The translations under genes were made by a program, and so were the position numbers. Under the pieces are notes generated by a model, which ran no database searches, was not told the origin of the DNA, and saw only the letters and a program-made list of their open reading frames with translations. A stretch of 64,000 nt of DNA from a virus (lineage: Duplodnaviria > Caudoviricetes), in the IMG/VR virus record IMGVR_UViG_3300023283_000076, positions 96,001-160,000 of that record. One strand, 5' to 3'. Within the stretch, counting starts at the first letter, position 1. Each line of letters begins with the position of its first letter. Shown here piece after piece: positions 5,728 through 44,478 of this stretch.

Positions 5728-5881
5728 TGTTATTTTTCGTTATTTTAAAAATTATTAGTTATATAATTTACGATTGGTATTATACCAATTGTTGAAGGGA
5801 TTGTCAAGCTTAAATGTTATTGATTGTAATTTGGTACTTATTGTGATATACTTATTTTAGAAATTTGTTAGGAAAAGATTA

Positions 5882-6274
5882 ATGTATAAGATGGATAACA
5901 ATTTACCTATAATTGGAGATAATTTTTCGGATAATGATTTTGGTAGAATATGTAAAGAATTATATTTATTTTTAGATGAAGAAAGTCGTGCTGTAGCGGA
6001 TGATATCGGAACTGATATTGAAAAATTTAATGTATTTTTGGCACAAATTCATCATTCTTATGGTCGTTTTTTGAGGAATGAATTTCATTTATGGAATTCG
6101 GACAATCCGATTGTATTGTGGAGTAGGGAAAAATACGGAATTGATCATGCTGATGATATTTCCAGTATTATTATTGCTGGGATAATATTTAATAAAGATC
6201 ATGAATTCAGAGATTTGGTAATTGATACATTAGTTAAGCGGTTTCATAAGCATTGGAGGATGTATGGAAACTAA
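5882..6274 (+). CDS. Hypothetical protein
   Basis: ORF behind a promoter-like AT-rich region. Confidence 0.65.
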   Translation: MYKMDNNLPIIGDNFSDNDFGRICKELYLFLDEESRAVADDIGTDIEKFNVFLAQIHHSYGRFLRNEFHLWNSDNPIVLWSREKYGIDHADDISSIIIAGIIFNKDHEFRDLVIDTLVKRFHKHWRMYGN

Positions 6275-16694: not shown

Positions 16695-18008
16695 TTGACA
16701 ACTCCCCTCGCTAAAGCAAGGGGATTCTTGTTTCACAGTCCTGTGCATTGCTCCATACAGGAGATTCAGTCTTATTTTGGACTCCACAAGCTAACTCCGT
16801 GTGCCCCACGGTTAAAATATTTTTAGCTGCATTAATATCTCGGTCATGTTCAACATGACACGATTCACAGCTAAATTTACGGACTGAAAGAGGCATTTTT
16901 GAATGCAAATGTCCACAACTGGAGCATGTTTTGGAACTAGGATACCATCGATTGACTTGATGGAATGTTCTGCCATACCATTCAGATTTATATTTCAGCA
17001 TGTCTACGAATGTTGACCATGCTGCATCTGAAATGGCTTTGCTCAATTTGCGGTTTTGAATCATGTTTTTAACAGCTAAGTCTTCTAATATGATCACTTG
17101 GTTCTCGTTGACAATATTAGAAGACAGTTTATGCAGAAAATCTTTCCTGCAATCAGCTATTTTAGCATGGACTCGTGCCACTTTCAGTTTTTGTTTCTTG
17201 AAGTTTTCACTTCCTTTTTGTTTCTTGCTTAAACGTCTTTGTTCAATTTTTAATTTCTGTGCATATTTTCTGGTGTTTCTCAGATTAGCAATCTTGTTTC
17301 CATTTGAATCAATCAGAAAATGTGTCAACCCAAGATCAATTCCAATCTTGTTTTGATTGACAGGTTTCAATTTCATGTCCTTCTCACCCTGAATAGAGAC
17401 GAAATATCTGTCAGCACTATCTTTTGAAACTGTGATTGAATTAATTTTTGACAAATCTAAGTCTCTTGACCATTTTATTTCTAATGGTTCTTTAGACTTT
17501 GCGATGTATAGCTTTCCGTCTTTAAAACGGAATCCACTATTGGTTAATCGAAATGATTGCTTTTTATGTCTATTTTTAAATTTTGGATATTTGGCTCTTC
17601 CCTTAAAGAAGTTAGAAAATGCAGTATCTAGATTGCGTAGTCCTTGTTGTAATGCCACATTACTTACATCATACAACCAGTCCAGTTCTTTTTTTAGCTC
17701 TGTGAGTTTTGCGCTCGTTTGATTATAATTAATTGAATTGTTATTTTGGTAATACTCATTGTGTCGGTATTCCAAAATATTGTTGTAGACAAATCGCACA
17801 CAGCCAAATGTCCGAGCGAGAAGTGTTTTCTGCTCATTGGTCGGATACACTCTATATTTGTATGCGATTTGTTGATTCAATTAATTGTTGCATATTTTTG
17901 TATTATACATCTATTTAGTAAATTTGACAAGTAGTAAATACTTTTGTCATATTATATTCTTTTAGAGTTTAACCCCTCCCTTAAGGAAGGGGTCTGTTTG
18001 TTTGGTTG
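16695..18008 (-). mobile_element. IS200/IS605-family TnpB-only element (IS1341-like), 1314 bp
   Basis: Inserted after TTGAT; left-end hairpin CCCCTTCC-TTAA-GGGAGGGG; right-end hairpin TCCCCTTGC-TTTA-GCGAGGGGA ending GTCAA; no target duplication; no tnpA. Confidence 0.93.
16711..17880 (-). CDS. tnpB: RNA-guided endonuclease TnpB
   Basis: AYKYRVYPT...FGCVRFVYN; GIDLG (RuvC-I), LEDL (RuvC-II), SSKTCSSCG/CESC Zn finger, DRDINAA (RuvC-III). Confidence 0.97.
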   Translation of the reverse strand: MNQQIAYKYRVYPTNEQKTLLARTFGCVRFVYNNILEYRHNEYYQNNNSINYNQTSAKLTELKKELDWLYDVSNVALQQGLRNLDTAFSNFFKGRAKYPKFKNRHKKQSFRLTNSGFRFKDGKLYIAKSKEPLEIKWSRDLDLSKINSITVSKDSADRYFVSIQGEKDMKLKPVNQNKIGIDLGLTHFLIDSNGNKIANLRNTRKYAQKLKIEQRRLSKKQKGSENFKKQKLKVARVHAKIADCRKDFLHKLSSNIVNENQVIILEDLAVKNMIQNRKLSKAISDAAWSTFVDMLKYKSEWYGRTFHQVNRWYPSSKTCSSCGHLHSKMPLSVRKFSCESCHVEHDRDINAAKNILTVGHTELACGVQNKTESPVWSNAQDCETRIPLL

Positions 18009-18618: not shown

Positions 18619-19185
18619 ATGAATAGAAGAATAGTAGTACTTAATTGTCCTCCTCAAAGTGGAAAGGATACTATTGCGGAAGAGTTCATTAACCGAAATG
18701 GATATACGATGATGTCTTTCAAATTTACCCTTATCAATATAGCATTAGTAATATCAAAAATACCTAAGGAAGAATGGGATGAAAGATATGTAGTGCATAA
18801 AGATTTGCCATGGGATAAATTGGGGGGATTGTCTCAACGAAACTATCTTATAAAGATAAGTGAAGAATGGGTTAAACCTGTTCACGGTAAAACTTACTTT
18901 GGTGAGTGTGTAAGAACAGATATAACAAGGCTCTCCAATAATGATAAGTTTATTTTACCGGATGGTGGATTTATAGAAGAAATAGAGCCATTATACGAGG
19001 AATTCGGACCAACATCTTTACTTATATTACAATGGGGTAGAAAAAATTGTAGTTTTGATAACGACAGTCGAGATTGGATTACCGCCTTTCCAGAAATAAC
19101 AAGAAAAGTTGATCGAGATAATGACACTACAATCGAAGATCATTATATAGCCGTAAAAGAGGTAATAGATGAATATTTTAAGTGA
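18619..19185 (+). CDS. Deoxynucleoside monophosphate kinase
   Basis: P-loop-like PPQSGKDT; RNYLIKISEEWVKP.HG..YFG; DGGF..E. Confidence 0.85.
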   Translation: MNRRIVVLNCPPQSGKDTIAEEFINRNGYTMMSFKFTLINIALVISKIPKEEWDERYVVHKDLPWDKLGGLSQRNYLIKISEEWVKPVHGKTYFGECVRTDITRLSNNDKFILPDGGFIEEIEPLYEEFGPTSLLILQWGRKNCSFDNDSRDWITAFPEITRKVDRDNDTTIEDHYIAVKEVIDEYFK

Positions 19186-19759
19186 TAGAGAAATCATAGG
19201 AGTTGATGTAGATTTAACTACGTTAAGGTCTGATATAAATTGGTGGCACTGGCTTAAAAATATGTCAGAAGATAATGACTTGCCTTATAATATTCAGGAT
19301 TATATCGATGCCGGAAACAAAGTTAGGTACAATCTTTCCAGCCATTTTCCGGCAATGAAAAACTCTAATGTACATCCCATGGATTTTTGGAGACAAGAAG
19401 GTGTTTATGATACTATACAACCTGTTGATAACGCTGTAGAGTCTATTAAAAAGTTAATGAATGTTTACAATATAGTTTTTGTAACACACAATAAAGGAAA
19501 CGGAGGGAGATCAAAATTCAATAATTTAGTTAGGCTGTTTGGAAAGGGAAATTTTGGGTATGTTGTAACAAAAGAAAAATATTTAATAAAATTGGATTAT
19601 CTTATAGACGATAGACACAGTTTTTTGAACAAATGTAATGAATTTGGAATATGCCCGATTAAAATATGTACACCGTTTATACAAGAAGAAGATCCTGAAG
19701 AACATATTGTAGAAATAGATGGATGGAAAAACATAACTAAATTATTAATAAATAAATAG
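19169..19759 (+). CDS. 5'(3')-deoxyribonucleotidase (HAD)
   Basis: IGVDVDLT and YLIDD HAD motifs. Confidence 0.8.
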   Translation: MNILSDREIIGVDVDLTTLRSDINWWHWLKNMSEDNDLPYNIQDYIDAGNKVRYNLSSHFPAMKNSNVHPMDFWRQEGVYDTIQPVDNAVESIKKLMNVYNIVFVTHNKGNGGRSKFNNLVRLFGKGNFGYVVTKEKYLIKLDYLIDDRHSFLNKCNEFGICPIKICTPFIQEEDPEEHIVEIDGWKNITKLLINK

Positions 19760-19782
19760 AACAGCATAGAAAATTTAATAAT

Positions 19783-20013
19783 ATGGCACCTATCGGAAAT
19801 TTTAGAACTATGGCATTATCTTTTAATCTTGGGAGATCAATGACTGATTCACAAAAGGAATGGTTGATTAATTGGGTGAAGTCAAATCTTTCCACGCCGA
19901 ATGAATTTGAAAAGGCTGCAACCATTGCATGGCAGTATGAGTTGCCGGAAGACGTGATAGAAAAAATTAAAAATCTTAAACCCGAAGAATCATATGACCA
20001 CGACGAATATTGA
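19783..20013 (+). CDS. Hypothetical protein
   Basis: ORF in operon. Confidence 0.55.
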   Translation: MAPIGNFRTMALSFNLGRSMTDSQKEWLINWVKSNLSTPNEFEKAATIAWQYELPEDVIEKIKNLKPEESYDHDEY

Positions 20014-20057
20014 CGGTTTTAACGTAAAGTAGTATAATACAGAAAAGTAATATTCTT

Positions 20058-21116
20058 ATGGTTAGAAAAAAATTATTATTATTTACCGACGCGTATGAAC
20101 CACAAGTTAATGGCGTTGTTACTACATTAAAGCAAACTAAAAAGCATTTGGAATGTATGGACTATGATGTTACGATAATATCACCAAATGACTTTAAATT
20201 TACTGTACCTCTACCATTTTATAATCAAATACGCTTAGCGTTTCCATCGAAAAGGAAAATATCAAAAATTGTAAAAAGTATAAACCCTGATTATATACAT
20301 ATAGCAACCGAAGGACCTATAGGATATCAAGCTTCTAGAGTTTGTCAAAAAAATAGTTTCTCTTACACAACATCATATCATACGAATTTCCCAGAGTATA
20401 TAAATCAAAAATTTTCGTTTATCTCAGAGAAAATAATAAACAAATATCTTAGAATTATACACTATAATGCCAACTGCGTATTAGTGACTACAAACTCCAT
20501 GAAGAAGAAACTACATGATAATGATATAAGCCATATTATAAGTGTATGGGGTAGAGGAGTTGATACATCTTCTTTTAAGTTCTCAAATAAGATAAAAGAT
20601 AATAATAAAATAAGACTTCTGTATGTGGGAAGGGTATCTGACGAAAAGAATATAGAAAGTTTTTTAGATATTAATCAGAAATTTTTTGTTCCTAAACTGG
20701 AAAAGATTGTTGTAGGTGATGGACCGGCACTTAAAAAATTAAAAGAAAAATATGCTGATGATCAGTCGATACGATTTGTGGGATGTAAAAAAGATAGAGA
20801 GCTAGAAAAAGAATACCAAAACGCTGATATATTTGTATTTCCATCTAAGACCGATACGTTTGGTATTGTCATGTTAGAGTCTATGGCCTGTGGTACTCCT
20901 GTAGCTGGCTATAGAGTCATGGGACCGAAGGATATTATAATACCCGGAATAAATGGTCATATTGATGATGATCTAACTATCGCAGTTTTAAAATGTGTAG
21001 ATATAGATAGGGGGACATGCTCTAATTCAATTTCATTTTTAACATGGGATGAAATAACAAAAAATTTTAAAAATATAATAGAGCATGTTACTGAAAATAA
21101 ATATGACTTATCGTAA
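20058..21116 (+). CDS. GT4 glycosyltransferase, Agt-like (glycolipid synthase)
   Basis: TDAYEPQVNGVVTTL, IHIATEGPIG, YHTNFPEY, YVGRVSDEKN, FPSKTDTFGIVMLESMACGTPV. Confidence 0.88.
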   Translation: MVRKKLLLFTDAYEPQVNGVVTTLKQTKKHLECMDYDVTIISPNDFKFTVPLPFYNQIRLAFPSKRKISKIVKSINPDYIHIATEGPIGYQASRVCQKNSFSYTTSYHTNFPEYINQKFSFISEKIINKYLRIIHYNANCVLVTTNSMKKKLHDNDISHIISVWGRGVDTSSFKFSNKIKDNNKIRLLYVGRVSDEKNIESFLDINQKFFVPKLEKIVVGDGPALKKLKEKYADDQSIRFVGCKKDRELEKEYQNADIFVFPSKTDTFGIVMLESMACGTPVAGYRVMGPKDIIIPGINGHIDDDLTIAVLKCVDIDRGTCSNSISFLTWDEITKNFKNIIEHVTENKYDLS

Positions 21117-21129
21117 TTTTGTATATAGA

Positions 21130-21399
21130 TTAATACTCCGGGAATCCTATTTCATTTAAAATTTCGTTCATTTTAAACAGACTTTCTTCATACATTACGA
21201 TTTTATCATCACTTTGATAATCTGGCAAATCTTTTTGTGTTATTGGGAATCCTGCAAGCCATATATATTCGCGGTCACCATTGTATACTATGAGTTCAGC
21301 TAAATTTCCTGTCATTTTGTCATATGCTTTTTTAACATAGTTCCCGTTGAGAAAACGATATGTTTCTAATGAAATCAAGGTATATAGATTATCGGACAT
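21130..21399 (-). CDS. Hypothetical protein
   Basis: ORF. Confidence 0.6.
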   Translation of the reverse strand: MSDNLYTLISLETYRFLNGNYVKKAYDKMTGNLAELIVYNGDREYIWLAGFPITQKDLPDYQSDDKIVMYEESLFKMNEILNEIGFPEY

Positions 21400-21598
21400 T
21401 ACTTTTAATTAATTCAAACTCTATTAATGCGTCTTCTTCGTCCATGGATTTCCAACGATTTCCTAGTATATTGATTATTTCTTTAATTTGAGCAATACTG
21501 ATTTCTTCCTTACCCGCTTCAGCTTCTGCTATATAAACTGCTAATTCGTTTAAATTTAAGTTTTTCATATGCCACCTCTATGTTTAAGATTATTTATA

Positions 21599-22096
21599 TC
21601 AGGAAAACGGGTTGTGTATTACTTTACTGTTGAACTGGCTTTCTAATTTATCTTTTATGTTTTTAATCCATTCATCCTCTATATGTCTAGCACGTATTTC
21701 AAATTTACCTCGAAGCACTAAATGAGTTTCAACCGGAACGTCTCCAAACTCGTCAAGTATAGAATACATTCTATTCCTGCCTTCGTGCCCTGAAACTTTT
21801 GCATGATCTGAGAAATCCTGTTCAAACCATCCATCTGGAATCTTTACGATAAGAAATGGAGAGCCAATTCCCTTACCAAATCTCAGTTTTTGACGTAGAT
21901 ACTCTACACTTTTTGTATCGGGTTTGAATACTCCAGTATCACTAGTTAATTTTAAAAATATAGAAGGTTTCATTTTCATGCGTTTTCCAAAATAATCTAT
22001 ATCTTGAGAGTATCCCGTAGCACCTATTCCGGTAGAAATGTTATTGTCTATTATAGGGGAATTTTGCTGTTCAAATAATATGTCAAAAATTTTCAT
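21599..22096 (-). CDS. ParB/Srx-like fold late protein
   Basis: IGSPFL and GHEGRNRM motifs; N-terminus MKIFDILFE. Confidence 0.6.
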   Translation of the reverse strand: MKIFDILFEQQNSPIIDNNISTGIGATGYSQDIDYFGKRMKMKPSIFLKLTSDTGVFKPDTKSVEYLRQKLRFGKGIGSPFLIVKIPDGWFEQDFSDHAKVSGHEGRNRMYSILDEFGDVPVETHLVLRGKFEIRARHIEDEWIKNIKDKLESQFNSKVIHNPFS

Positions 22097-22812
22097 AAAA
22101 AGGGATCCGTAAAAACAAGTTGTAAGCCATATGGTGTTCTTCTTACCATAATATTTTCTGAATGGATATCATATATCAATCCTCGTCCTCCTCTAATTGA
22201 CTTCTTTCCGGCTTGTTTTTCTTTTTTTCTAATCATTTGTAATATTTTTATCGCTTTTTTAAAAGAGTCATCAACTATTTTCAGTTTTGTTATCCCCTTA
22301 GAAATTTGCTCTATATCTTTAGCGAATCTATCAATATATGCTTTCTTTAATTCACTACTATCCAATCCAGCAGTATTTTGCATCAACGTAGGCAGCCCGT
22401 CTTGTCCAAATATTCTTTCAAATAAATGTTCAATTTCTTTAAGATTCAACTCTTTTAATGGTTCTAATTTTTCGATTTCACCACGAAACATCAAGTCTCC
22501 TGTAGAATCTTTAATCTTTTTTATACTATATACTCTAGGAAAATGAGGATTTTCCCATAACTTATATTTTATTACATAATCTATAAATGTCCAATACCCG
22601 TCTATTGTATCCATTCCGGGAACTTTAGAAGATTTTTTTACAGTGTGTGGGTCTGAGCCGGGTTTAACTGTAGAAAATCTACCAACACTCCTTCCTTTTT
22701 CTCTTTCATTTTGATCGTCTTCTACCTCCCAATCATCAGATTTAAATTTTCCTGATACCGAACGCTCTTTAGTTGAAGTTGATATTATCTCTAATAAGTT
22801 ATTGATTTTCAT
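22093..22812 (-). CDS. Protein-kinase-like fold protein, paralogue of 9276-9992
   Basis: NPHFPRVY, IEKLE, DIHSENIMVR, QLVFTDP. Confidence 0.78.
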   Translation of the reverse strand: MKINNLLEIISTSTKERSVSGKFKSDDWEVEDDQNEREKGRSVGRFSTVKPGSDPHTVKKSSKVPGMDTIDGYWTFIDYVIKYKLWENPHFPRVYSIKKIKDSTGDLMFRGEIEKLEPLKELNLKEIEHLFERIFGQDGLPTLMQNTAGLDSSELKKAYIDRFAKDIEQISKGITKLKIVDDSFKKAIKILQMIRKKEKQAGKKSIRGGRGLIYDIHSENIMVRRTPYGLQLVFTDPFL

Positions 22813-23204
22813 ATATGTAAGATATAAATTTACACAATATATAAGATATTTATAAAATATTAATTATATAATGGAGGTAGAAATAAATAAAATATATTAA
22901 ATAAAAAATTATAATGGAAGACGGTCCGGATATTTTAAATATTATAAATCTAATTACATTACTAAAAATATCGGGTTTTTTAGTAACAGCAATAGTTGGA
23001 ATTCCACTGTTCATACTTTTAGCATTTCTAATAATTATTAAAGTTGGAATACAAACAATAATTGAAGATTTCTTATCTTAGCAAAAATTATATATTTAAA
23101 TCAGTTACCTGTTATGTAGATAATACCATAATTTTTATCTCCTACGAAGAACAGACAGCGATGTCGTCTCCATCCATGTAAATTCTATCTGCTATTTATA
23201 CAAA

Positions 23205-23618
23205 TCATGATATTCTCTTATTCTCTTGCATAAATTCATCTTTTCCTATGTTTTCTTCTAAAAATATATATTTTTTGGCATATATATCTTTCCTCATGGA
23301 AATAATTATATTCTCATATGCATCCTTTATTTCATCGCCCCCATTGTCTATTTTAAACAAAAAATCATTTATGGCTCTGATGACTTTCGGTGGTGCATAT
23401 AACCAACATGTATCATAATGTAATTTATTACGCGTCTTCGCATTCAAAAACAACGGAGCGGAGCTATTACTTTCTTTACACTCTTGCAAAACCGTTAGTA
23501 TTTTAGCATAGTGATTTTCTTTATTGCGGTCTTGATCCCATAATCGTTGGCGTCGCGTATTAAACAACCACCCAGAAATTATGCCTACTGCAGACAATAT
23601 AATATTGTAATCTTCCAT
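23205..23618 (-). CDS. Hypothetical protein with N-terminal membrane anchor
   Basis: ORF with AGGAG RBS. Confidence 0.65.
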   Translation of the reverse strand: MEDYNIILSAVGIISGWLFNTRRQRLWDQDRNKENHYAKILTVLQECKESNSSAPLFLNAKTRNKLHYDTCWLYAPPKVIRAINDFLFKIDNGGDEIKDAYENIIISMRKDIYAKKYIFLEENIGKDEFMQENKRIS

Positions 23619-23696
23619 ATTAAATACTCCTTATATTTAATGATAAGGGGTATAGTATAATAGGATACAAATTATGTGTAAAGGTTTTTATGGAAG

Positions 23697-23939
23697 TTAC
23701 TTTAAGCTAGGGTACCATTTCCGTGCCATCGCTTCTGATTCAAAAGAGTCAATATGTTCTTTCTTTTCAACCTTTCCGTCGACCTCGGTATTTTTATATA
23801 CCCAAAATTCACCTACAGCTTTTTTAGGCTCCATGGTGTAATATTCTTTTTTGTTTTCCTTTTTAGGTCTGTTCTCTTCTTCAAATATTCCGGACCATTT
23901 CTTTAAAAATGATAAATCATTTTCATCTAAGTGTTTCAT
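23697..23939 (-). CDS. Hypothetical late protein
   Basis: Minus-strand TATAAATA at 23974-23981; AGGAG RBS. Confidence 0.65.
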   Translation of the reverse strand: MKHLDENDLSFLKKWSGIFEEENRPKKENKKEYYTMEPKKAVGEFWVYKNTEVDGKVEKKEHIDSFESEAMARKWYPSLK

Positions 23940-23973
23940 ATAATGTAATCACTCCTTTTAGTTTAATTACATA

Positions 23974-23987
23974 TATTTATATAAATA
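23974..23987. promoter_or_regulatory. Overlapping divergent late promoters
   Basis: TATTTATATAAATA reads TATAAATA on both strands. Confidence 0.7.
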
Positions 23988-24009
23988 TTCTTCAGTAAAA
24001 ATTAAACAT

Positions 24010-24525
24010 GTGATGGATATAGTTAATATATTAGAATCCTTTGATACTTCTCCTGTAAGCTGGAAGTGGATAAATAAAAAAGATAATAAGCATAATAGCC
24101 CATTAGCCCGAATAGCAGCATTTGTAATCGATGGCATAGAATATAAAGTCAATATAACTACAACCAATGACCCGAATGATAGAATATACGAAATAGCATT
24201 TTATATGGGAGACGACGATCAAGGCGACAATGATCGAATGACGAACACCGGAAACCAATATAAGGTTCTTTCTACTGTAATGGACATAATGGAATCGTTT
24301 ATTGTAAAGCACAAAAAGGTGATTAAAGGTATTATATTCGCAGCAAATAAACGTATATCAAAGTATGACTACGAGGAGTCTGATTCCCGTGATAAAGTCT
24401 ATAGGCGTCTAATATATAAAAATATTAAAAAACTCCCGGGTATTTGGTCAGTGACTGAAACGAACAATAAATCAGGAAACTTTATAGTTTTTCATTTACA
24501 TAACCATAATTTTAATGAACAATAG
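24010..24525 (+). CDS. Late protein, paralogue of 26203-26754
   Basis: Shared NILESF.T.PV.W, GNQYKVLSTV, R..VY.RLI. Confidence 0.75.
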   Translation: MMDIVNILESFDTSPVSWKWINKKDNKHNSPLARIAAFVIDGIEYKVNITTTNDPNDRIYEIAFYMGDDDQGDNDRMTNTGNQYKVLSTVMDIMESFIVKHKKVIKGIIFAANKRISKYDYEESDSRDKVYRRLIYKNIKKLPGIWSVTETNNKSGNFIVFHLHNHNFNEQ

Positions 24526-24564
24526 GTAATTGACATTACTATATATTAATGGTATGATATTCTA

Positions 24565-25152
24565 ATGAAAATAAAATTAAATAATAGTAAAATACAATAT
24601 TGGGTGACATCAGATATGCACCTCGGGCATAAAAATGTTATAAGATATTCTAATAGACCATTTTCTTCCGTTGAAGATATGGATAATGCCCTCATTCATA
24701 ATTGGAACAGTACAGTAGGAAAAGATGATATTGTTTTTAATTTAGGAGATTTTGCGTTTCTCAATCAAGATAAAATTATAGAAATTTTGGAATGCTTAAA
24801 TGGGGCACAATATTTTGTATATGGCAATCATGATAGGCAAATGGCATCTGACGCCGTCCAAAATTTTTGTAAGAGAACTAAAAAAATTAAGTTATTCTGT
24901 GATGTTATAGAATGTAATTACAAAAAGATTCCAATATTTATGAGCCATTATGCCCATAGAGTCTGGAATAAGCATCATCATGGTGCTATACATTTGTATG
25001 GACATTCACATGGTTCATTGCCACAAATAGGACGATCAATGGATGTTGGTGTGGATAGTAATGATATGCCTACAAATTATTCCCCTCGATCATTAGATGA
25101 TGTTGTAGAATTTTTAAACACTCAACCCATTAACAAAGCTGACCATCATTGA
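24565..25152 (+). CDS. Calcineurin-like metallophosphoesterase
   Basis: SDMHLGH, LGDF, GNHD, SHY, GHSHG. Confidence 0.9.
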   Translation: MKIKLNNSKIQYWVTSDMHLGHKNVIRYSNRPFSSVEDMDNALIHNWNSTVGKDDIVFNLGDFAFLNQDKIIEILECLNGAQYFVYGNHDRQMASDAVQNFCKRTKKIKLFCDVIECNYKKIPIFMSHYAHRVWNKHHHGAIHLYGHSHGSLPQIGRSMDVGVDSNDMPTNYSPRSLDDVVEFLNTQPINKADHH

Positions 25153-25153
25153 T

Positions 25154-25215
25154 GATTCATGTATGAGTCATTTAGAGGGCTTTTGATTTATGTATGAGTC
25201 ATTTAGAGAGCTTTT
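25154..25215. repeat. 31-bp tandem duplication between convergent genes
   Basis: GATTYATGTATGAGTCATTTAGAGRGCTTTT x2. Confidence 0.85.
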
Positions 25216-25218
25216 AAT

Positions 25219-25599
25219 TTATAATAGATCCAAAAAATTATCATTAATGGCTTTAGCAAAGTTGCTAGGTGTATCCACTATAAGGCTTCTTTTAGGTTTA
25301 TGCTCAGAGTCTATTAATTTCAACGCCTGTTCTGCTCTAAACAATTGATGTTTAAGTATGCGCGCCTGCGCCTTTTTCCGTTGTTCAAAGGATTCTAATG
25401 CTTTCTCAGGAGTGGGACAAGCGAACTTTTTTCTGGTATCAGCACGGACAAATTTTTTCTCTCCTGACTCTAATTTGATCCATGCTCCACAAGGTGTGTG
25501 TTTTATAACAGGATATTTTTTTAGCTTAATATCAAAACCTTGTACAGTCTTGAAATCTTCATATCTATACCAATATTTTCCGTCATCGAATAATCCCAT
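25219..25599 (-). CDS. Hypothetical protein
   Basis: ORF; TPCGAWI...KKFACPT..KALESF. Confidence 0.7.
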   Translation of the reverse strand: MGLFDDGKYWYRYEDFKTVQGFDIKLKKYPVIKHTPCGAWIKLESGEKKFVRADTRKKFACPTPEKALESFEQRKKAQARILKHQLFRAEQALKLIDSEHKPKRSLIVDTPSNFAKAINDNFLDLL

Positions 25600-25805
25600 T
25601 TTTTAACTCTCGTTATTATTTAAACGTTTTATAAACGTAACTATGGTGTAAAGGTCTTTCTCATTAAAATCTTTGTTAGGCTTAGGCCGAAATCTAAGTT
25701 CATTTTCAAATATGTTAATATACCCAACAGTATTTTCAAAATCGCCGTTTACAGATACAACCTCTCATCCGTAATCTCCACCCAATTCATAGAATCCAAT
25801 ATTGC

Positions 25806-26087
25806 TCATTTGTTATCCTGTTTTTGTCGTTCAATTCTATCAATTGAAGCAGCAATTAATGCCCCGGCCTTTTCTAGATTCCGAATTTTATTATCAGAGG
25901 GTTTCCACCATGAATCTGGCCATGGCCATGTGTGACCCTTTCCCGTTCCGTATATTGTGTGTCTTAAATATTCAAATGCAGCAGACTCTAATTCATTATG
26001 TTTATATTGGTTATCGTGTATACTATCAAAACCTTCTTCATTTATTTGACGGTTACGCTCTTGCTCAATTTTTTTAATTCCACTCAT
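25806..26087 (-). CDS. Conserved phage protein (ERxRQ...WPW...WWKP family)
   Basis: ERNRQINEEG...WPWPDSWWKP...RNLEKAGALIAA. Confidence 0.8.
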   Translation of the reverse strand: MSGIKKIEQERNRQINEEGFDSIHDNQYKHNELESAAFEYLRHTIYGTGKGHTWPWPDSWWKPSDNKIRNLEKAGALIAASIDRIERQKQDNK

Positions 26088-26202
26088 ATTTTTTCTCTCC
26101 GGATTATGTTATATTATATTATAAATGATTTAAAATGTAATGTCAATATTTTAAAACTTTGTTTTTTGATCTATAAATATTATAATTAATAATAGTATAT
26201 AA

Positions 26203-26754
26203 ATGTATTTTTTAAATGAACTTAACAAAATTAATATATTAGAATCTTTCAATACTAATCCTGTGAATTGGACATGGACAGAGAAAAATGATTCTAAAGA
26301 CGCTATGGGCACTATCACACCGGAAAAATACACTGCTGATTTTTCTATCGATGACCACAAATATAAAGTACGCATAGACACGGATATGCCAGTTAAGTAT
26401 GTGCCTAGTCCGCATACATATGTAGTGGTTTTTGGTTTACTCACAGGACCCAATAAAATTAATATGGATATGACGCATGCTGGCAACCAATATAAAGTCT
26501 TAAGTACCGTTATAGATATACTTAAAAATTTTATTCAGAATAACCAAAAACATATTGGAGAAATACATTTTTCTGCAGAAAAAAAGGATTTTTTTAGTTC
26601 TGATCCAACTACTGATCCAAATAGTTTTAGTAAAAACAGAGCGAACGTATATGCTAGACTGATTAAAGAAAATTTAAAAAACCTGCCCGGAAATTGGAGC
26701 TTTATACAAAAAGATCATGAAGCAGAAGTTCAATTTAAACTTATACAAAAGTGA
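26203..26754 (+). CDS. Late protein, paralogue of 24010-24525
   Basis: TATAAATA at 26172-26179; shared motifs. Confidence 0.75.
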   Translation: MYFLNELNKINILESFNTNPVNWTWTEKNDSKDAMGTITPEKYTADFSIDDHKYKVRIDTDMPVKYVPSPHTYVVVFGLLTGPNKINMDMTHAGNQYKVLSTVIDILKNFIQNNQKHIGEIHFSAEKKDFFSSDPTTDPNSFSKNRANVYARLIKENLKNLPGNWSFIQKDHEAEVQFKLIQK

Positions 26755-26766
26755 AAATTTTTAAGA

Positions 26767-27072
26767 TTAGTCAAATACTTCATCTTCCATATTTAATTTT
26801 TCTGCTAATTTAGCTAACACATCTCCGTGACATGGTAACGGATGACAAAAACAACCCAATCGTTTCCCATATAACTGTTTTACATTTGTCCTAAAGTCTG
26901 GGTCATTATTAATTCGTTTTATTGCATATTTTTCAAAGTTATTGATTCGGCTAGTTCTAGTCCCAACAGTAAACGGGTTACCAAAATAGCCATCCATACC
27001 ATGACCGGCGCGGCCAATATATACATCAAAGTCTTTATTGGTATTGATATTGACTACTGTTGTTTTTGGCAT
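26767..27072 (-). CDS. DUF4326 protein
   Basis: DVYIGR...GNPF...GKRLGCFCHPLPCHGDVL; start reassigned to MPKTT. Confidence 0.88.
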   Translation of the reverse strand: MPKTTVVNINTNKDFDVYIGRAGHGMDGYFGNPFTVGTRTSRINNFEKYAIKRINNDPDFRTNVKQLYGKRLGCFCHPLPCHGDVLAKLAEKLNMEDEVFD

Positions 27073-27146
27073 TTTATTATTATAGTATCTTAATTGTTTT
27101 TTGTCTACACATAGCATAAATAATAACGTCATCAATTTTTGTATAA

Positions 27147-27359
27147 ATGAAAATTCAAAAACTCATGGAAGTCCCAGAAAAATATATTGATGCCTATAGA
27201 TATTTTAAACGAATGTCGGCCACTCAAACAAATATGACAAGAGATGCTATTATTACTACCGTTGCTAGAATGTTTGCCATCCCAAATATTAAACATTTTC
27301 ATAGCTATGTGTTACGTATGATTGAACGTGAAAAACAGGGTTTTATGACATATAGATGA
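27147..27359 (+). CDS. Small late protein
   Basis: N-terminus MKIQKLME. Confidence 0.6.
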   Translation: MKIQKLMEVPEKYIDAYRYFKRMSATQTNMTRDAIITTVARMFAIPNIKHFHSYVLRMIEREKQGFMTYR

Positions 27360-27367
27360 TATATTAA

Positions 27368-28150
27368 TTAGTAATACTCAAGTTTTATATTTCCATGTTC
27401 ATCTTCATACAAATACGAGCAAAATTCCACCCAGCATCCACAATTTAAATATCTTATATCATCAATTATTTTGTCTTCCGCATAATGTATGTGCCCACAA
27501 ATAACGCCATCCGCATCATGTTCTGCAGCACAATTTACAACCAAATTTTCATAATTATTAATATATTGTACTGATCGTTTAACACTATTTTTCACCCATT
27601 GTGCCAAACTCCATTCCTTTAAATTAAACATTCGTCTAATTTTGTTTAGTAGTCTATTTAAGATTATAATAAGTTTATAGCTACAGTTTCCTAATGTATA
27701 TATAATAGGATACATTCTAACTAATCCATCGAACTCGTCCCCGTGAAGAATAAAAAATCTGTCACCGTTTTTTGTAGTATAAACGTCATTATATTTTATT
27801 GTTATTCCATTAAAAGTTACACCTGCGGGAGACTCTTTTAAAAATTCTTCTGATAAAAAGTAATCATGATTCCCTCTTATATACGTTATTTGCACTCCCT
27901 TGTCTGCCATACGAAAGAACTTTTTAATTATTTTTCTATGTTTAGACCAAAAAACCCTATGATTAAATCCTGTCATATCTATAATGTCACCAACAAGGAA
28001 AATTTTATTAATAATATAACCTCCCTCATTGTTTTCTAAAGATTTGAGAAATTCATATAATTTTTCATGTTGGCAATTAGGATTTCCAAGGTGAATATCA
28101 GATAACCATATAGACTCAATATGTGTATTTTTATTTTTTTCGTTTTTCAT
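27368..28150 (-). CDS. PlcP-like metallophosphoesterase (phospholipase C / UDP-diacylglucosamine hydrolase-like)
   Basis: WLSDIHLG..CQ, LVGDIID, GNHD, HGDEFD, WSLAQWVKNSVK.SV.YI..YE, DGVICGHIH. Confidence 0.85.
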   Translation of the reverse strand: MKNEKNKNTHIESIWLSDIHLGNPNCQHEKLYEFLKSLENNEGGYIINKIFLVGDIIDMTGFNHRVFWSKHRKIIKKFFRMADKGVQITYIRGNHDYFLSEEFLKESPAGVTFNGITIKYNDVYTTKNGDRFFILHGDEFDGLVRMYPIIYTLGNCSYKLIIILNRLLNKIRRMFNLKEWSLAQWVKNSVKRSVQYINNYENLVVNCAAEHDADGVICGHIHYAEDKIIDDIRYLNCGCWVEFCSYLYEDEHGNIKLEYY

Positions 28151-28232
28151 TCGTGGGCGGTCACTTGTCAACTGCTGATTTATTTATCTTCTTGTTATAG
28201 AAGTTACTATATTACAAAACAGTTACAACAAA

Positions 28233-28320
28233 TGGTGCGGATGGTGGGATTCGAACCCACAAGACCCAATCGGGCCATATGTCCCTCAAACATACGTGTC
28301 TGCCATTCCACCACATCCGC
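28233..28320 (-). tRNA. tRNA-Leu(GAG)
   Basis: Cloverleaf with long variable arm; loop TT-GAG-GG; CCA encoded. Confidence 0.95.
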
Positions 28321-28381
28321 TTGACTTTCCCCTTCATTAATGAAGGGGATTTCTAATTCATCGAAACTTACATTGTTTTTG
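28321..28381 (-). mobile_element. 61-bp IS200/IS605-type mini-element abutting the 5' end of tRNA-Leu
   Basis: TTTAT|CAAAAAACAA...AAATCCCCTTCA-TTAA-TGAAGGGGAAAGTCAA|G1 of the tRNA. Confidence 0.65.
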
Positions 28382-28396
28382 ATAAATGGGAGGGGA

Positions 28397-28468
28397 TGCC
28401 GTTGAAAGGATTCGAGCCTTTAACTTTTTCCTATCAAGGAACTGCTCTGCCAATTGAGCTACAACGGC
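28397..28468 (-). pseudogene. Degenerate tRNA-Ile(GAT)
   Basis: 6-nt anticodon loop TTGATA, C54, no encoded CCA. Confidence 0.7.
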
Positions 28469-28483
28469 AATTTATATTATTTA

Positions 28484-29050
28484 TTATCCACCCCAATTGC
28501 GCAGACGATAATCTTCATACTCTGGTTCAAGTCTATGTACCACTACACTATACATGTAAACTTCTGGATTGTCATTCCACTTTTGACCTTCTTCATGATC
28601 TAAATCCCATTCATACGCAAATCTCCATATTTCAAGAGGTTTCTTTTTAAAGTCGTCCGGCATTTCATTATCAATTTTTTGTGGAATAGATTCATTAAAT
28701 ATTCCAGTGTTAATGGCTTCCTTCTTGCCAATATTCTTCAATTTTTTGGTATCTATTGCTACACATTCTAAAGCATATCGGGCATAAGACTTTTTCATTT
28801 TAGATGATTCAATCCATTTTGGGTCTTCTTTTTTATAGAAGTCTGTATAATATTGTATTGTTTTTGTTTTGTTATTCTGAACTATTCTATATTTTTCCGG
28901 AACCCAATAATATGCATCTTTTTCCAAAGAGGGTTTCTTTTTCTTTCCCACCGGTTCTAATATAATTCTAGGTGTATTTCCAAACCTATATCGAATAAAT
29001 TTGAAGAACCTATATGGAATTTCTATAGGAAATTTTTTATTGGGGTCCAT
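28484..29050 (-). CDS. ASCH-like phage protein (tentative)
   Basis: WIESSKM...LKNI..KEAI..GI...FAYEWD...KWNDNPEVY resembles the W.PSIHMPR...W..NPWVW family. Confidence 0.55.
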   Translation of the reverse strand: MDPNKKFPIEIPYRFFKFIRYRFGNTPRIILEPVGKKKKPSLEKDAYYWVPEKYRIVQNNKTKTIQYYTDFYKKEDPKWIESSKMKKSYARYALECVAIDTKKLKNIGKKEAINTGIFNESIPQKIDNEMPDDFKKKPLEIWRFAYEWDLDHEEGQKWNDNPEVYMYSVVVHRLEPEYEDYRLRNWGG

Positions 29051-43515: not shown

Positions 43516-44478
43516 TTAAGTATAATATCCTTTATACCATTTTATAAAATTATGTATTCCAGCTTCTATATCTACTTTTGGGCTATGGTTTATGATATTT
43601 TTTATTTTTGATAGATTCGCATGAGTTATGCGCATTTCCTCTATATTCTCTGGCAATATTTTTATATTAGCTCGCTTGTTTAGATTTTGTTCTATAAGTT
43701 TAATAACATCCATTAGATAAATTGGAGTTCCATTAGAAATATTATATATTTCATATGGTATGGAACCTTCTGGTATTTTGGTTAATATTTGACATATTAT
43801 ATTAACTGCATCATCAATGTATGTGAAATCTCTATATTGATTTCCATTATTATACACTTTTATTTGTTTATCAGATAGAATACTTTTAGTAAATTTATGC
43901 ATTGCCAAATCCGGGCGCAACCATGGTCCATATATAGAAAATAGGCGTAACCCAGTAGTAGGGATATCATACATATTACTATAAACATGTGCCATCAATT
44001 CATTAGATTTTTTTGTCGCCCCATATATTGATATTTGTTTATCCGTGTTGTCTTCTTCATGGAATGGTGGAGTATTATTGTTGTATACCGCACTGGAAGA
44101 AGCATACACTAAATGTTTTACTTCATATTCTTTCATTACGTCTAATATGTTCATAAATCCTGAAATATTGTTGTCAATTACTTCTTCAGGATGCTTCGTA
44201 GAATATCTAACACCTGCTTGTGCCGCTAAATGTACGATATAGTCTATTGAATTTTTTTCAAATATTTTTTTGAGGTCTTGGGTATTTCTTATATCAATTT
44301 TTTTAAAAATAAAATTTGAATTTAAGCTAATTATATCTTTTACTCTATCGCGTTTAAGATTTTGGTCATAATAAGAATTTAAATTATCTATCCCTATTAC
44401 GTTAATATTTTTACGTAGTAATGCCTTACATAATGAATGCCCGACGAATCCTGCAACACCTGTTATTAACGTATACAT
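43516..44478 (-). CDS. NAD-dependent epimerase (UDP-glucuronate 4-epimerase-like)
   Basis: GVAGFVG, HLAAQAGVRYS, YGATKKSNE, RDFTYIDD. Confidence 0.92.
   Translation of the reverse strand: MYTLITGVAGFVGHSLCKALLRKNINVIGIDNLNSYYDQNLKRDRVKDIISLNSNFIFKKIDIRNTQDLKKIFEKNSIDYIVHLAAQAGVRYSTKHPEEVIDNNISGFMNILDVMKEYEVKHLVYASSSAVYNNNTPPFHEEDNTDKQISIYGATKKSNELMAHVYSNMYDIPTTGLRLFSIYGPWLRPDLAMHKFTKSILSDKQIKVYNNGNQYRDFTYIDDAVNIICQILTKIPEGSIPYEIYNISNGTPIYLMDVIKLIEQNLNKRANIKILPENIEEMRITHANLSKIKNIINHSPKVDIEAGIHNFIKWYKGYYT

What the first reader, a model, noticed from the sequence alone, without database searches (positions are those of the whole stretch)
20058..28150. Phage copies of both halves of the phosphate-starvation lipid-remodelling pathway (Agt-like and PlcP-like)
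Seen: a GT4 with TDA..PQVNGVV.TL/IATEGP (20058-21116) and a metallophosphoesterase with the WSL..W.K..VK..V.YI..YE segment (27368-28150), about 6 kb apart. Known: in marine heterotrophs PlcP removes phospholipid head groups and the usually adjacent glycosyltransferase Agt converts the diacylglycerol to glycolipids under P limitation. Inference: the phage mines host membrane phosphorus for DNA synthesis while keeping the membrane intact, or alters the membrane against superinfection.
Basis: partly seen in the sequence, partly recalled or inferred. Interest (0 to 1): 0.72.

Follow-up and report, generated by a model that had tools for sequence, protein, structure and literature searches.

The report
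Phage PlcP and Agt lipid-remodelling genes
This uncultured jumbo phage carries its own copies of the two bacterial enzymes that strip phosphate head groups from membrane lipids and rebuild the lipids with sugar heads, so it can probably draw phosphorus from its host's membrane; databases label the first gene wrongly as the lipid A gene lpxH.

Summary
Both genes are real, intact and single-copy in a 270,653-bp phage record. The 260-aa metallophosphoesterase (27368-28150, minus strand) is not LpxH. It scores 44.5 bits against the LpxH model (cut-off 134). It groups with the second, non-LpxH paralogue of bacteria, a family that also occurs in bacteria with LpxI or with no lipid A enzyme found.

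The GT4 (20058-21116, plus strand) finds as its best hit, in five whole bacterial genomes, the GT4 next to that paralogue (195-244 bits; ordinary GT4 paralogues score 26-60). In about 48 of 80 bacterial species, and in six related phage contigs, the two homologues are adjacent in the order plcP then agt.

In this phage's own subclade a rearrangement has separated them: 6.25 kb apart and convergent here, about 9 kb apart in a close relative. Both are under strong purifying selection.

Enzyme identity is well supported. The purpose, phosphorus supply for DNA synthesis, is inferred. No Pho box, pstS or phoH was found in this record.

I found no paper describing phage PlcP or Agt. This scan has noted the same pair in at least 13 other phage genomes.

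The parts
27368..28150 (-). PlcP-family metallophosphoesterase, 260 aa (ATG 28150; the ORF could extend to TTG 28171). Predicted phospholipase C that removes phospholipid head groups to give diacylglycerol.
   Evidence: Pfam Metallophos. LpxH models far below cut-off: 44.5 vs 134 and 34.9 vs 190 bits. All metal-binding motif residues are invariant: D18, H20, D55, N94, H95, H136, H220, H222. 37% identity, 179 bits, E 1e-60 to the Rhizobium lusitanum PlcP-type protein, against 44.7 bits to E. coli LpxH. In the tree it sits in a 37-row phage/metagenome clade (support 97) inside the bacterial PlcP-like family, and LpxH is split off by a 100%-supported branch. AlphaFold model pLDDT 83.6 with a two-helix lid at 147-210; the top 25 PDB matches are all LpxH at 14-19% identity. 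dN/dS about 0.04-0.05 against relatives.
20058..21116 (+). Agt-like family-4 glycosyltransferase, 352 aa. Predicted diacylglycerol glucosyl/glucuronosyl-transferase that makes glycolipids.
   Evidence: Pfam GT4 domains. The best NCBIfam matches are lipid glycosyltransferases (GlcN-PG synthase, alpha-monoglucosyl-DAG synthase), all far below their cut-offs. 46% identical to P0167, which JGI names 1,2-diacylglycerol 3-alpha-glucosyltransferase/glucuronosyltransferase and which overlaps a PlcP-like gene on a 1.56-Mb bacterial contig. In 5 whole genomes the best hit is the plcP-adjacent GT4 (195-244 bits); ordinary GT4 paralogues score 26-60, and Bradyrhizobium has a second copy at 235 bits. Nested in the plcP-adjacent GT4 clade. 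AlphaFold model pLDDT 89.8; the nearest reviewed proteins are DAG- or PI-lipid glycosyltransferases such as MgtA, Mgs, SQD2 and PimB-type enzymes. dN/dS about 0.05.
20010..20038 (+). Sigma-70-like promoter TTGACG-17-TATAAT, ending 20 nt before the GT4 start codon.
   Evidence: 11 of 12 consensus positions. The -35 TTGAC and the GTAGTATAAT -10 region recur at the same place upstream of the 86%-identical GT4 in contig L092. This is a consensus match only. Promoter-like sites as a whole are not enriched in the region (76 found, 67.8 expected).
26767..27135 (-). DUF4326 gene, a conserved downstream neighbour of the pair in this phage lineage. Function unknown and not shown to belong to the pathway.
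   Evidence: Pfam DUF4326, E 6.7e-19. It follows the MPE here and in L093/L094. It follows MPE-GT4 in L002, L003 and L004.

Best explanation
The phage encodes a working two-step membrane-lipid renovation pathway, taken as an operon from a proteobacterium by an ancestor of this jumbo-phage lineage. Step 1, inferred from family membership: the PlcP-type metallophosphoesterase sits at the inner membrane through its helical lid and cleaves the phosphodiester bond of host glycerophospholipids (PE, PG, PC). This releases a soluble phospho-head group and leaves diacylglycerol. Step 2, also inferred: the Agt-like GT4 transfers glucose or glucuronic acid from a UDP-sugar to that diacylglycerol. The bilayer is refilled with phosphorus-free glycolipid and does not accumulate diacylglycerol, which does not form bilayers. 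Likely benefit, inferred and least certain: the freed phosphate feeds nucleotide synthesis for a genome of more than 270 kb. In relatives the pair lies among replication and nucleotide-metabolism genes. In this phage's subclade the ancestral plcP-agt operon has been broken by rearrangement. The GT4 now has its own host-type promoter, and the esterase lies just downstream of a tRNA cluster on the other strand. No Pho box is evident, so expression may not depend on the host's phosphate status.
For: Shown by computation.
(1) The esterase is not LpxH. It scores 44.5 bits against a cut-off of 134. Five gamma- and betaproteobacterial genomes each hold a true LpxH (297-335 bits) plus a second paralogue (37-60 bits), and the phage protein matches the second one. 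In the tree LpxH and the PlcP-like family are split with 100% support. Bradyrhizobium, Rhizobium and Methylobacterium have LpxI, no true LpxH, and this paralogue. Two Sphingomonadales genomes show neither LpxH nor LpxI; both carry the PlcP-like/Agt-like pair in the loci, and the LpxH model picks up the paralogue in one of them.
(2) The catalytic motifs are intact, and the fold is LpxH-like with a lipid-type lid.
(3) The GT4 is specific to the plcP-adjacent GT4 family. JGI gives a 46%-identical member the Agt name. Its structural neighbours are lipid glycosyltransferases.
(4) Linkage: about 48 of 80 bacterial species loci have the GT4 homologue directly downstream of the esterase homologue. This is the type 2 plcP-agt arrangement of Sebastian et al. 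2016 (PMC4796936). The same adjacency occurs in phage contigs L002, L003/L004, L007, L194 and L195 and in 16 of 80 IMG/VR loci, three of them beside T4-type DNA polymerase and helicase genes.
(5) Both genes are kept through the rearrangements under dN/dS of about 0.04-0.05.
(6) Phosphate link in other phages: pstS lies 1.5 kb downstream of the pair in L195 and is the divergent neighbour of the PlcP-like gene in Pelagibacter phage Mosig.
Against: No enzyme activity, lipid product or expression was measured. I could not fetch the experimentally characterised reference sequences (MED193_17359, PB7211_983/960, SMc00171, PA3219/3218, Atu2297), so family membership rests on orthologues from the same taxa and on gene order. 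Identity to bacterial PlcP-type proteins is only 35-41%. In this window the two genes are 6.25 kb apart on opposite strands, so co-regulation is not evident. E. coli-type Pho boxes are not enriched, and none lies upstream of either gene. The 79%-complete record holds no pstS, phoH or UDP-glucose dehydrogenase. pstS lies within 10 kb of the PlcP-like gene in 0 of 80 IMG/VR loci, so the phosphate link is anecdotal. Most of those loci (58 of 80) have no strong GT4 hit in the DNA held, up to 10 kb each side. The dS values are saturated, so the dN/dS figures are rough.
Confidence: 0.62

Rival explanations
1. The same two enzymes and the same chemistry, but the pay-off is a changed envelope rather than phosphorus. 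Replacing phospholipids with glycolipids would alter membrane charge, fluidity or receptor presentation. That could block superinfecting phages, tune lysis timing or stabilise the cell late in infection.
For: No Pho box, pstS or phoH accompanies the genes here, and pstS is near the gene in 0 of 80 IMG/VR loci. The GT4 has a constitutive-looking sigma-70-type promoter. Published work links lipid renovation to altered phage susceptibility in bacteria (titles and abstracts of PMC9804370 and PMC9938194; not read in full).
Against: In relatives the pair sits among replication and nucleotide-metabolism genes (DNA polymerase, helicase, DHFR, thymidylate synthase, RNR, pyrophosphatase), not among receptor or lysis genes. 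Two phages place it beside pstS. Many phages carry PlcP alone, which removes phosphate but makes no new surface lipid.
Confidence: 0.22
2. The two genes are functionally unrelected in this phage, that is, unrelated. The esterase would act on another phospho- or pyrophospho-lipid or on a nucleotide (UDP-diacylglucosamine, CDP-diacylglycerol, undecaprenyl-PP sugars). The GT4 would glycosylate LPS, a virion protein or another acceptor.
For: The genes are 6.25 kb apart and convergent here, and about 9 kb apart in L090. Sequence identity to bacterial relatives is moderate (35-48%). The closest solved structures of the esterase are all LpxH.
Against: The esterase is clearly outside the LpxH equivalog. 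Adjacency of the two families is the rule in deeper-branching phage relatives and in bacteria, and both genes persist together after being separated. The GT4's only strong bacterial matches are the plcP-adjacent genes and their second copies.
Confidence: 0.1
3. Decaying passenger genes picked up from a host, with no function in the phage.
For: The region is a rearranged, mobile-element-bearing stretch with many small ORFs. It includes a TnpB/OrfB_IS605 gene at 16711-17880.
Against: Both reading frames are full-length with all catalytic residues. dN/dS is about 0.04-0.05. Both genes form deep phage-specific clades of dozens of sequences.
Confidence: 0.03

Closest known systems
Bacterial PlcP-Agt lipid-renovation operon (Sinorhizobium meliloti SMc00171; Phaeobacter sp. 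MED193 MED193_17359; SAR11 HTCC7211 PB7211_983/PB7211_960; Agrobacterium tumefaciens Agt). Sebastian et al. 2016, PMC4796936.
   Same: The same two protein families. The same gene order (plcP then agt, often overlapping) occurs in related phages and in about 48 of 80 bacterial loci. The metal site is intact, and the GT4 specifically matches the plcP-adjacent gene.
   Different: It is phage-encoded. Identity to bacterial members is only 35-48%. The phage clade carries its own insertions, for example ENNEGGYIINK after the first helix. In this phage the operon is split, with the genes 6.25 kb apart and convergent. No Pho box was found. The activities are untested.
LpxH, UDP-2,3-diacylglucosamine diphosphatase of lipid A synthesis (PDB 5B4B, 5K8K, 5WLY)
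   Same: Calcineurin-like metallophosphoesterase core with a helical lid inserted at the same place. LpxH entries are the closest solved structures (E about 2e-10, TM about 0.54). This is why databases name the gene lpxH.
   Different: 44.5 bits against a 134-bit cut-off, and only 27% identity over 161 residues to E. coli LpxH. It is a separate paralogue where both exist, and the family is present where LpxH is absent.
PlcP-like genes of cultured phages annotated as LpxH: Pelagibacter phage Mosig EXVC030M Mosig_00120 (MT647606) and Synechococcus phage S-SRM01 QPX48289 (MW015081)
   Same: The same family (33% and 31% identity), also in large myophages. In Mosig the gene is the divergent neighbour of a pstS-type gene.
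   Different: Those phages show no Agt-like gene within 6 kb. The Mosig gene falls outside the window's phage clade, among bacterial sequences, but on a long and unsupported branch. Neither genome paper read or searched discusses the gene.
Phosphate-stress auxiliary metabolic genes of marine phages (pstS, phoH, phoA) and cyanophage lipid desaturases (Roitman et al. 2018, cited in PMC12282109)
   Same: Host-derived metabolic genes carried by aquatic phages that act on phosphorus supply or on membrane lipids.
   Different: Those genes import phosphate or desaturate acyl chains. None of them removes phosphorus from existing membrane lipid.

Membership tests
PlcP (LpxH-like phospholipase C of lipid renovation) | Calcineurin-like metallophosphoesterase with all metal-binding motifs (DxH, GD, GNH, H, GHxH) | tested here: met
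   Pfam Metallophos E 1.2e-10. D18, H20, D55, N94, H95, H136, H220 and H222 are invariant in the 11-sequence alignment.
PlcP (LpxH-like phospholipase C of lipid renovation) | A paralogue distinct from the lipid A enzyme LpxH | tested here: met
   44.5 bits against the 134-bit cut-off. It groups with the low-scoring second paralogue of 5 genomes that also hold a true LpxH. The family is present in LpxI users and in genomes with neither LpxH nor LpxI found.
PlcP (LpxH-like phospholipase C of lipid renovation) | BLASTP E < 1e-40 to Phaeobacter MED193 PlcP, the working criterion of Sebastian et al. 2016 | not testable with these tools
   The reference sequence could not be fetched. As a proxy, E is 1e-60 (179 bits, full length) to the Rhizobium lusitanum member, and 1e-52 to 1e-58 to 80 bacterial loci.
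PlcP (LpxH-like phospholipase C of lipid renovation) | Genomic linkage to a gene for a phosphorus-free lipid (agt, btaAB, pgt) | tested here: met
   Adjacent to an Agt-like GT4 in 6 related phage contigs and in about 48 of 80 bacterial loci. In this window the partner lies 6.25 kb away on the other strand.
PlcP (LpxH-like phospholipase C of lipid renovation) | Pho-regulon control (Pho box upstream) | tested here: inconclusive
   E. coli-type Pho boxes are not enriched (6 found, 5.3 expected) and none lies upstream of either gene. The host and its Pho box are unknown. A lone 7+4+7 direct repeat lies upstream of the esterase.
PlcP (LpxH-like phospholipase C of lipid renovation) | Hydrolyses PC, PE or PG to diacylglycerol | not testable with these tools
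   Needs an enzyme assay or lipidomics.
Agt (GT4 diacylglycerol glucosyl/glucuronosyl-transferase) | GT4, GT-B fold with the acidic-x7-E sugar-nucleotide motif | tested here: met
   Pfam Glyco_transf_4 plus Glycos_transf_1. AlphaFold model pLDDT 89.8 with two Rossmann-like halves. D266 and E274 are invariant. The motif itself is recalled from general knowledge of GT4.
Agt (GT4 diacylglycerol glucosyl/glucuronosyl-transferase) | Specific relative of the plcP-adjacent GT4 rather than of other GT4 paralogues | tested here: met
   In 5 whole genomes the top hit is the plcP-adjacent gene (195-244 bits); ordinary paralogues score 26-60 bits, and Bradyrhizobium has a second copy at 235 bits. Nested inside that clade in the tree. 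46% identical to a protein that JGI names with the Agt function.
Agt (GT4 diacylglycerol glucosyl/glucuronosyl-transferase) | Lipid acceptor | tested here: inconclusive
   The top 10 reviewed structural neighbours all act on lipid acceptors: glycosylated DAG, DAG or PI (MgtA, Mgs, SQD2, PimB-type enzymes, GPI3). The best NCBIfam matches are lipid glycosyltransferases, all below cut-off. This is suggestive, not proof.
Agt (GT4 diacylglycerol glucosyl/glucuronosyl-transferase) | Makes MGDG and GADG when expressed | not testable with these tools
   Needs heterologous expression and mass spectrometry, as was done for PB7211_960 (PMC4796936).
LpxH (lipid A pathway) | Reaches the curated equivalog score | tested here: not met
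   NF003743: 44.5 bits against 134. TIGR01854: 34.9 bits against 190.35.

The most novel reading that the evidence does not exclude
Membrane-lipid renovation would be a widespread and so far unrecognised class of phage auxiliary metabolism, hidden under the label 'lpxH'. In this jumbo-phage lineage it would have been uncoupled from the host's Pho regulon, with the operon split, a constitutive host-type promoter on agt, and plcP behind a tRNA cluster. The phage would then impose the phosphate-starvation lipid swap on any infected cell, and so turn the membrane into a phosphorus store for replicating a genome of more than 270 kb.
Probability: 0.4. Interest if true: 0.75.

Novelty: new member of a known kind. 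Interest (0 to 1): 0.6.

Why it matters
Phospholipids are one of a bacterial cell's larger phosphorus pools. Bacterial PlcP-Agt remodelling is an established adaptation to low-phosphate waters. If phages carry and use the same pathway, infection itself would shift membrane lipid composition, adding glycolipids such as glucuronosyl-diacylglycerol. It would also alter the cellular phosphorus budget in low-phosphate waters. Viral 'lpxH' entries in auxiliary-gene surveys would then be misassigned to LPS synthesis, as in the table of PMC9611531. A 2025 study of virocells under low phosphate says little is known about how lipid remodelling plays out in infected cells (PMC12282109). These genes offer a concrete handle on that question, and cultured phages such as Pelagibacter phage Mosig carry the first enzyme.

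Tried and rejected
- Megablast of 19000-29000 against the phage collection found no match.
- Literature: the combinations PlcP/phage/lipid remodelling, PlcP/Agt/virus, PlcP/viral/phosphorus, Mosig, diacylglucosamine/cyanophage/pelagimyophage/LpxH, and lipid remodel/auxiliary metabolic/phage were searched. The papers opened gave no description of a phage PlcP or Agt. One search term was rejected and one search was too loose to be useful.
- Named reference sequences of characterised PlcP and Agt could not be obtained, so there is no direct comparison with them.
- RNA evidence: no RNA holder was listed for the region or for the esterase gene.
- Pho box: the E. coli-type consensus is not enriched, and none lies upstream of either gene here or in 11 related upstream regions. 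A TTGTAAY-N4-TTGTAAY repeat family is not enriched either.
- Other phosphate-stress or sugar-donor genes: no PhoH, PstS or UDP-glucose dehydrogenase in the record. A pstS-like gene lies within the loci of 0 of 80 IMG/VR records.
- Defence-system models (PADLOC) gave no match for either protein or for two neighbours. The sub-threshold Pfam 'GT4-conflict' match covers only 37 residues.
- No remnant of a GT4 lies between the esterase and DUF4326, and there is no second copy of either gene.
- Environment and host were not determined. The run names are coded.
- Complex prediction was not used, because consecutive enzymes of a pathway need not bind each other.

Full report
**What is there.** The window is bases 96001-160000 of a 270,653-bp IMG/VR virus record, estimated 79% complete. 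The record encodes a large terminase subunit and class I ribonucleotide reductase. The window holds 17 tRNA genes. It is an uncultured jumbo phage with about 32% G+C.

- The GT4 is 352 aa, at 20058-21116 on the plus strand.
- The metallophosphoesterase is on the minus strand. Its ATG at 28150 gives the 260-aa product on record (P0003).

The quoted peptide motifs are all there. The genes are convergent, with 6,251 bp between their stop codons. Each is single-copy in the record.

**The esterase is PlcP-type, not LpxH.** Several lines agree.
- Curated models: it reaches 44.5 bits on the LpxH equivalog model, whose cut-off is 134, and 34.9 bits on TIGR01854, whose cut-off is 190.
- Pairwise: against E. 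coli LpxH it aligns over only 161 residues at 27% identity (44.7 bits). Against the LpxH-like protein of Rhizobium lusitanum it aligns end to end at 37% (179 bits, E 1e-60).
- Bacterial relatives: a scan of one genome per species returned 80 loci at 35-41% identity, E 1e-52 to 1e-58.
- Paralogy: five of those genomes (Pseudomonas, Alteromonas, Pseudoalteromonas, Cupriavidus, Pseudoteredinibacter) each hold a true LpxH scoring 297-335 bits. Each also holds a second paralogue scoring 37-60 bits, and that second gene is the phage protein's relative.
- Genomes without LpxH: Bradyrhizobium, Rhizobium and Methylobacterium have LpxI and no true LpxH. Two Sphingomonadales genomes show neither enzyme, yet both carry the PlcP-like/Agt-like pair.
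- Tree: in a 130-row tree LpxH is separated from this family by a 100%-supported long branch. The window's protein lies in a 37-row clade of metagenomic, largely phage-borne sequences (support 97), nested among the bacterial members.
- Active site and fold: all metal-binding residues are invariant. The AlphaFold model (pLDDT 83.6) has the phosphoesterase core plus a two-helix lid at residues 147-210. Its 25 best PDB matches are all LpxH, at 14-19% identity. Reviewed UniProt entries give the same picture.

So it has an LpxH-like architecture suited to a lipid substrate, in a separate family. By taxon and gene order that family is the one Sebastian et al. (PMC4796936) call PlcP.

**The GT4 is Agt-type.**
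- Its best curated matches are lipid glycosyltransferases, all far below their cut-offs.
- Among 7,997 homologues it is 46% identical to P0167. JGI names P0167 1,2-diacylglycerol 3-alpha-glucosyltransferase/glucuronosyltransferase, and the gene overlaps a PlcP-like gene on a 1.56-Mb bacterial contig.
- In five whole bacterial genomes the phage GT4's best hit is always the gene next to the PlcP-like gene (195-244 bits). Ordinary GT4 paralogues score 26-60 bits, and Bradyrhizobium has a second copy at 235 bits.
- In a 107-row tree it sits in a phage-rich clade inside the plcP-adjacent GT4 family, nearest to gammaproteobacterial members. Three of the four paralogue GT4s taken as outgroup fall outside; the fourth is on a very long branch and is not resolved.
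- Its model (pLDDT 89.8) is closest to MgtA, alpha-monoglucosyl-diacylglycerol synthases, SQD2 and PimB-type mannosyltransferases, all of which glycosylate membrane lipids.

**Linkage.**
- Bacteria: in about 48 of the 80 bacterial loci a strong GT4 homologue (36-44% identity, 195-271 bits) lies directly downstream of the esterase homologue on the same strand. This is the published type 2 plcP-agt arrangement.
- Related phage contigs: the order esterase then GT4, often overlapping, occurs in L002, L003/L004, L007 (187 kb), L194 (178 kb) and L195 (149 kb). L003 is syntenic with the window.
- IMG/VR: at least 415 stretches encode the esterase family. Among the best 80 loci, 16 have the GT4 immediately downstream and 22 have it within the DNA held. 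Three of these loci lie beside T4-type DNA polymerase and helicase genes.
- The window's own subclade: here the operon has been broken. In L090 the genes are about 9 kb apart. In L093/L094 the esterase is followed by DUF4326 with no GT4 between them. In the window the GT4 lies 6.25 kb away and inverted.

Adjacency is found in deeper-branching phage relatives and in bacteria, so separation looks derived (inference). Both genes are nevertheless kept. dN/dS is about 0.04-0.05 against relatives, although dS is saturated.

**Regulation and context.**
- The GT4 has an 11-of-12 sigma-70-like promoter 20 nt upstream of its start. The promoter is conserved in L092.
- The esterase follows a tRNA-Leu gene by 82 nt. 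It also sits just after a tRNA gene in L090 and L002.
- E. coli-type Pho boxes are not enriched, and none is upstream of either gene.
- The record has no pstS, phoH or UDP-glucose dehydrogenase.
- Elsewhere the phosphate link is only occasional. pstS lies 1.5 kb downstream of the pair in L195 and is the divergent neighbour in Pelagibacter phage Mosig. It is absent from all 80 IMG/VR loci.
- The usual neighbours in relatives are replication and nucleotide-metabolism genes. The window holds an IMPDH/GMP-reductase-like gene and an NT5C-like gene nearby.

**Most likely mechanism.**
- Shown: family membership, intact active sites, conserved linkage and purifying selection.
- Inferred: the esterase cleaves phospholipid head groups to give diacylglycerol, and the GT4 glycosylates that diacylglycerol. 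Phosphorus leaves the membrane while a bilayer is kept.
- Inferred with less confidence: the freed phosphate supports synthesis of a large genome. At 270 kb or more, each genome copy needs at least 5.4e5 phosphorus atoms (my own arithmetic).

The main rival keeps the chemistry but puts the benefit in a changed envelope. A weaker rival treats the two genes as unrelated in this phage.

**Novelty.** The enzymes belong to known families, so this is a new member of a known kind. I found no paper that describes phage-encoded PlcP or Agt. Cultured-phage records and virome tables list the gene as lpxH. Earlier notes of this scan report the same pair in at least 13 other phage genomes, often with Pho boxes or pstS. 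This window differs in having the pair split and showing no Pho box.

Noticed in passing
window 16711-17880 (-): A full-length TnpB/OrfB_IS605-type gene (HTH_OrfB_IS605, OrfB_IS605 and Cas12f1-like TNB domains; phrog_506, E 5e-138). It sits inside the rearranged block between the IMPDH-like gene and the GT4. The related contigs L090 and L092 have no gene of that size at the corresponding place.
   Followed up: partly
window 26767-27135 (-): A DUF4326 gene is a conserved downstream neighbour of the esterase or of the pair in this phage lineage (window, L002, L003, L004, L093, L094). It is not seen next to the pair in L007, L194 or L195. Function unknown.
   Followed up: partly
window 24565-25152 (+): A second, small metallophosphoesterase (Metallophos_2, 24.2 bits, just below the cut-off) lies between the two genes. 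It is 61% identical to a gene in the syntenic contig L003, which carries a further Metallophos gene as well.
   Followed up: no
window 24010-24525 (+) and 26203-26754 (+): Two ORFs match DUF6934, one above the cut-off and one weakly. They may be paralogues, and they lie in the stretch that separates the GT4 from the esterase.
   Followed up: no
window 18619-20013 (+): Three genes (188 aa, a 196-aa NT5C-like 5'-nucleotidase, 76 aa) precede the GT4 in the same order in the window, L090 and L092. An NT5C gene also lies near the PlcP-like gene in L193.
   Followed up: no
window 28211-28228 (-): An exact direct repeat, TTGTAAC-TGTT-TTGTAAT (7+4+7, the spacing of a Pho box), lies between tRNA-Leu and the esterase start. 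It is the only exact copy in the window. A similar repeat lies upstream of the esterase in L002, on the other strand. The motif family is not statistically enriched (9 found, 6.8 expected).
   Followed up: partly
window 28394-28469 (-): ARAGORN reports a tRNA-like gene with an undetermined anticodon ('ga' at position 35), just upstream of tRNA-Leu and the esterase.
   Followed up: no
L095 about 5839-5988 (Pelagibacter phage Mosig, MT647606): The divergent intergenic region between the pstS-type gene and the PlcP-like gene holds TTAACA-type repeats at 11-bp spacing (TTAACAA-AAAC-TTAACAT). This could be a Pho-box-like operator shared by both genes.
   Followed up: no
G007 and G009 (Sphingomonas sp. 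HT-1, Polymorphobacter sp.); loci L014, L064: In these Sphingomonadales genomes neither LpxH nor LpxI was found, yet both carry the PlcP-like/Agt-like pair. This is a natural control showing that the family is not a lipid A enzyme.
   Followed up: partly
G006:C1:1364444-1365415 (Bradyrhizobium betae), locus L112: A second Agt-like gene, as similar to the phage GT4 (235 bits) as the plcP-adjacent copy, lies elsewhere on the chromosome.
   Followed up: no
window 43516-44478 (-): A nucleotide-sugar epimerase homologue (phrog_540, E 3.5e-73). It could bear on sugar-donor supply or on the virion glycosylation genes that another report notes in this genome.
   Followed up: no
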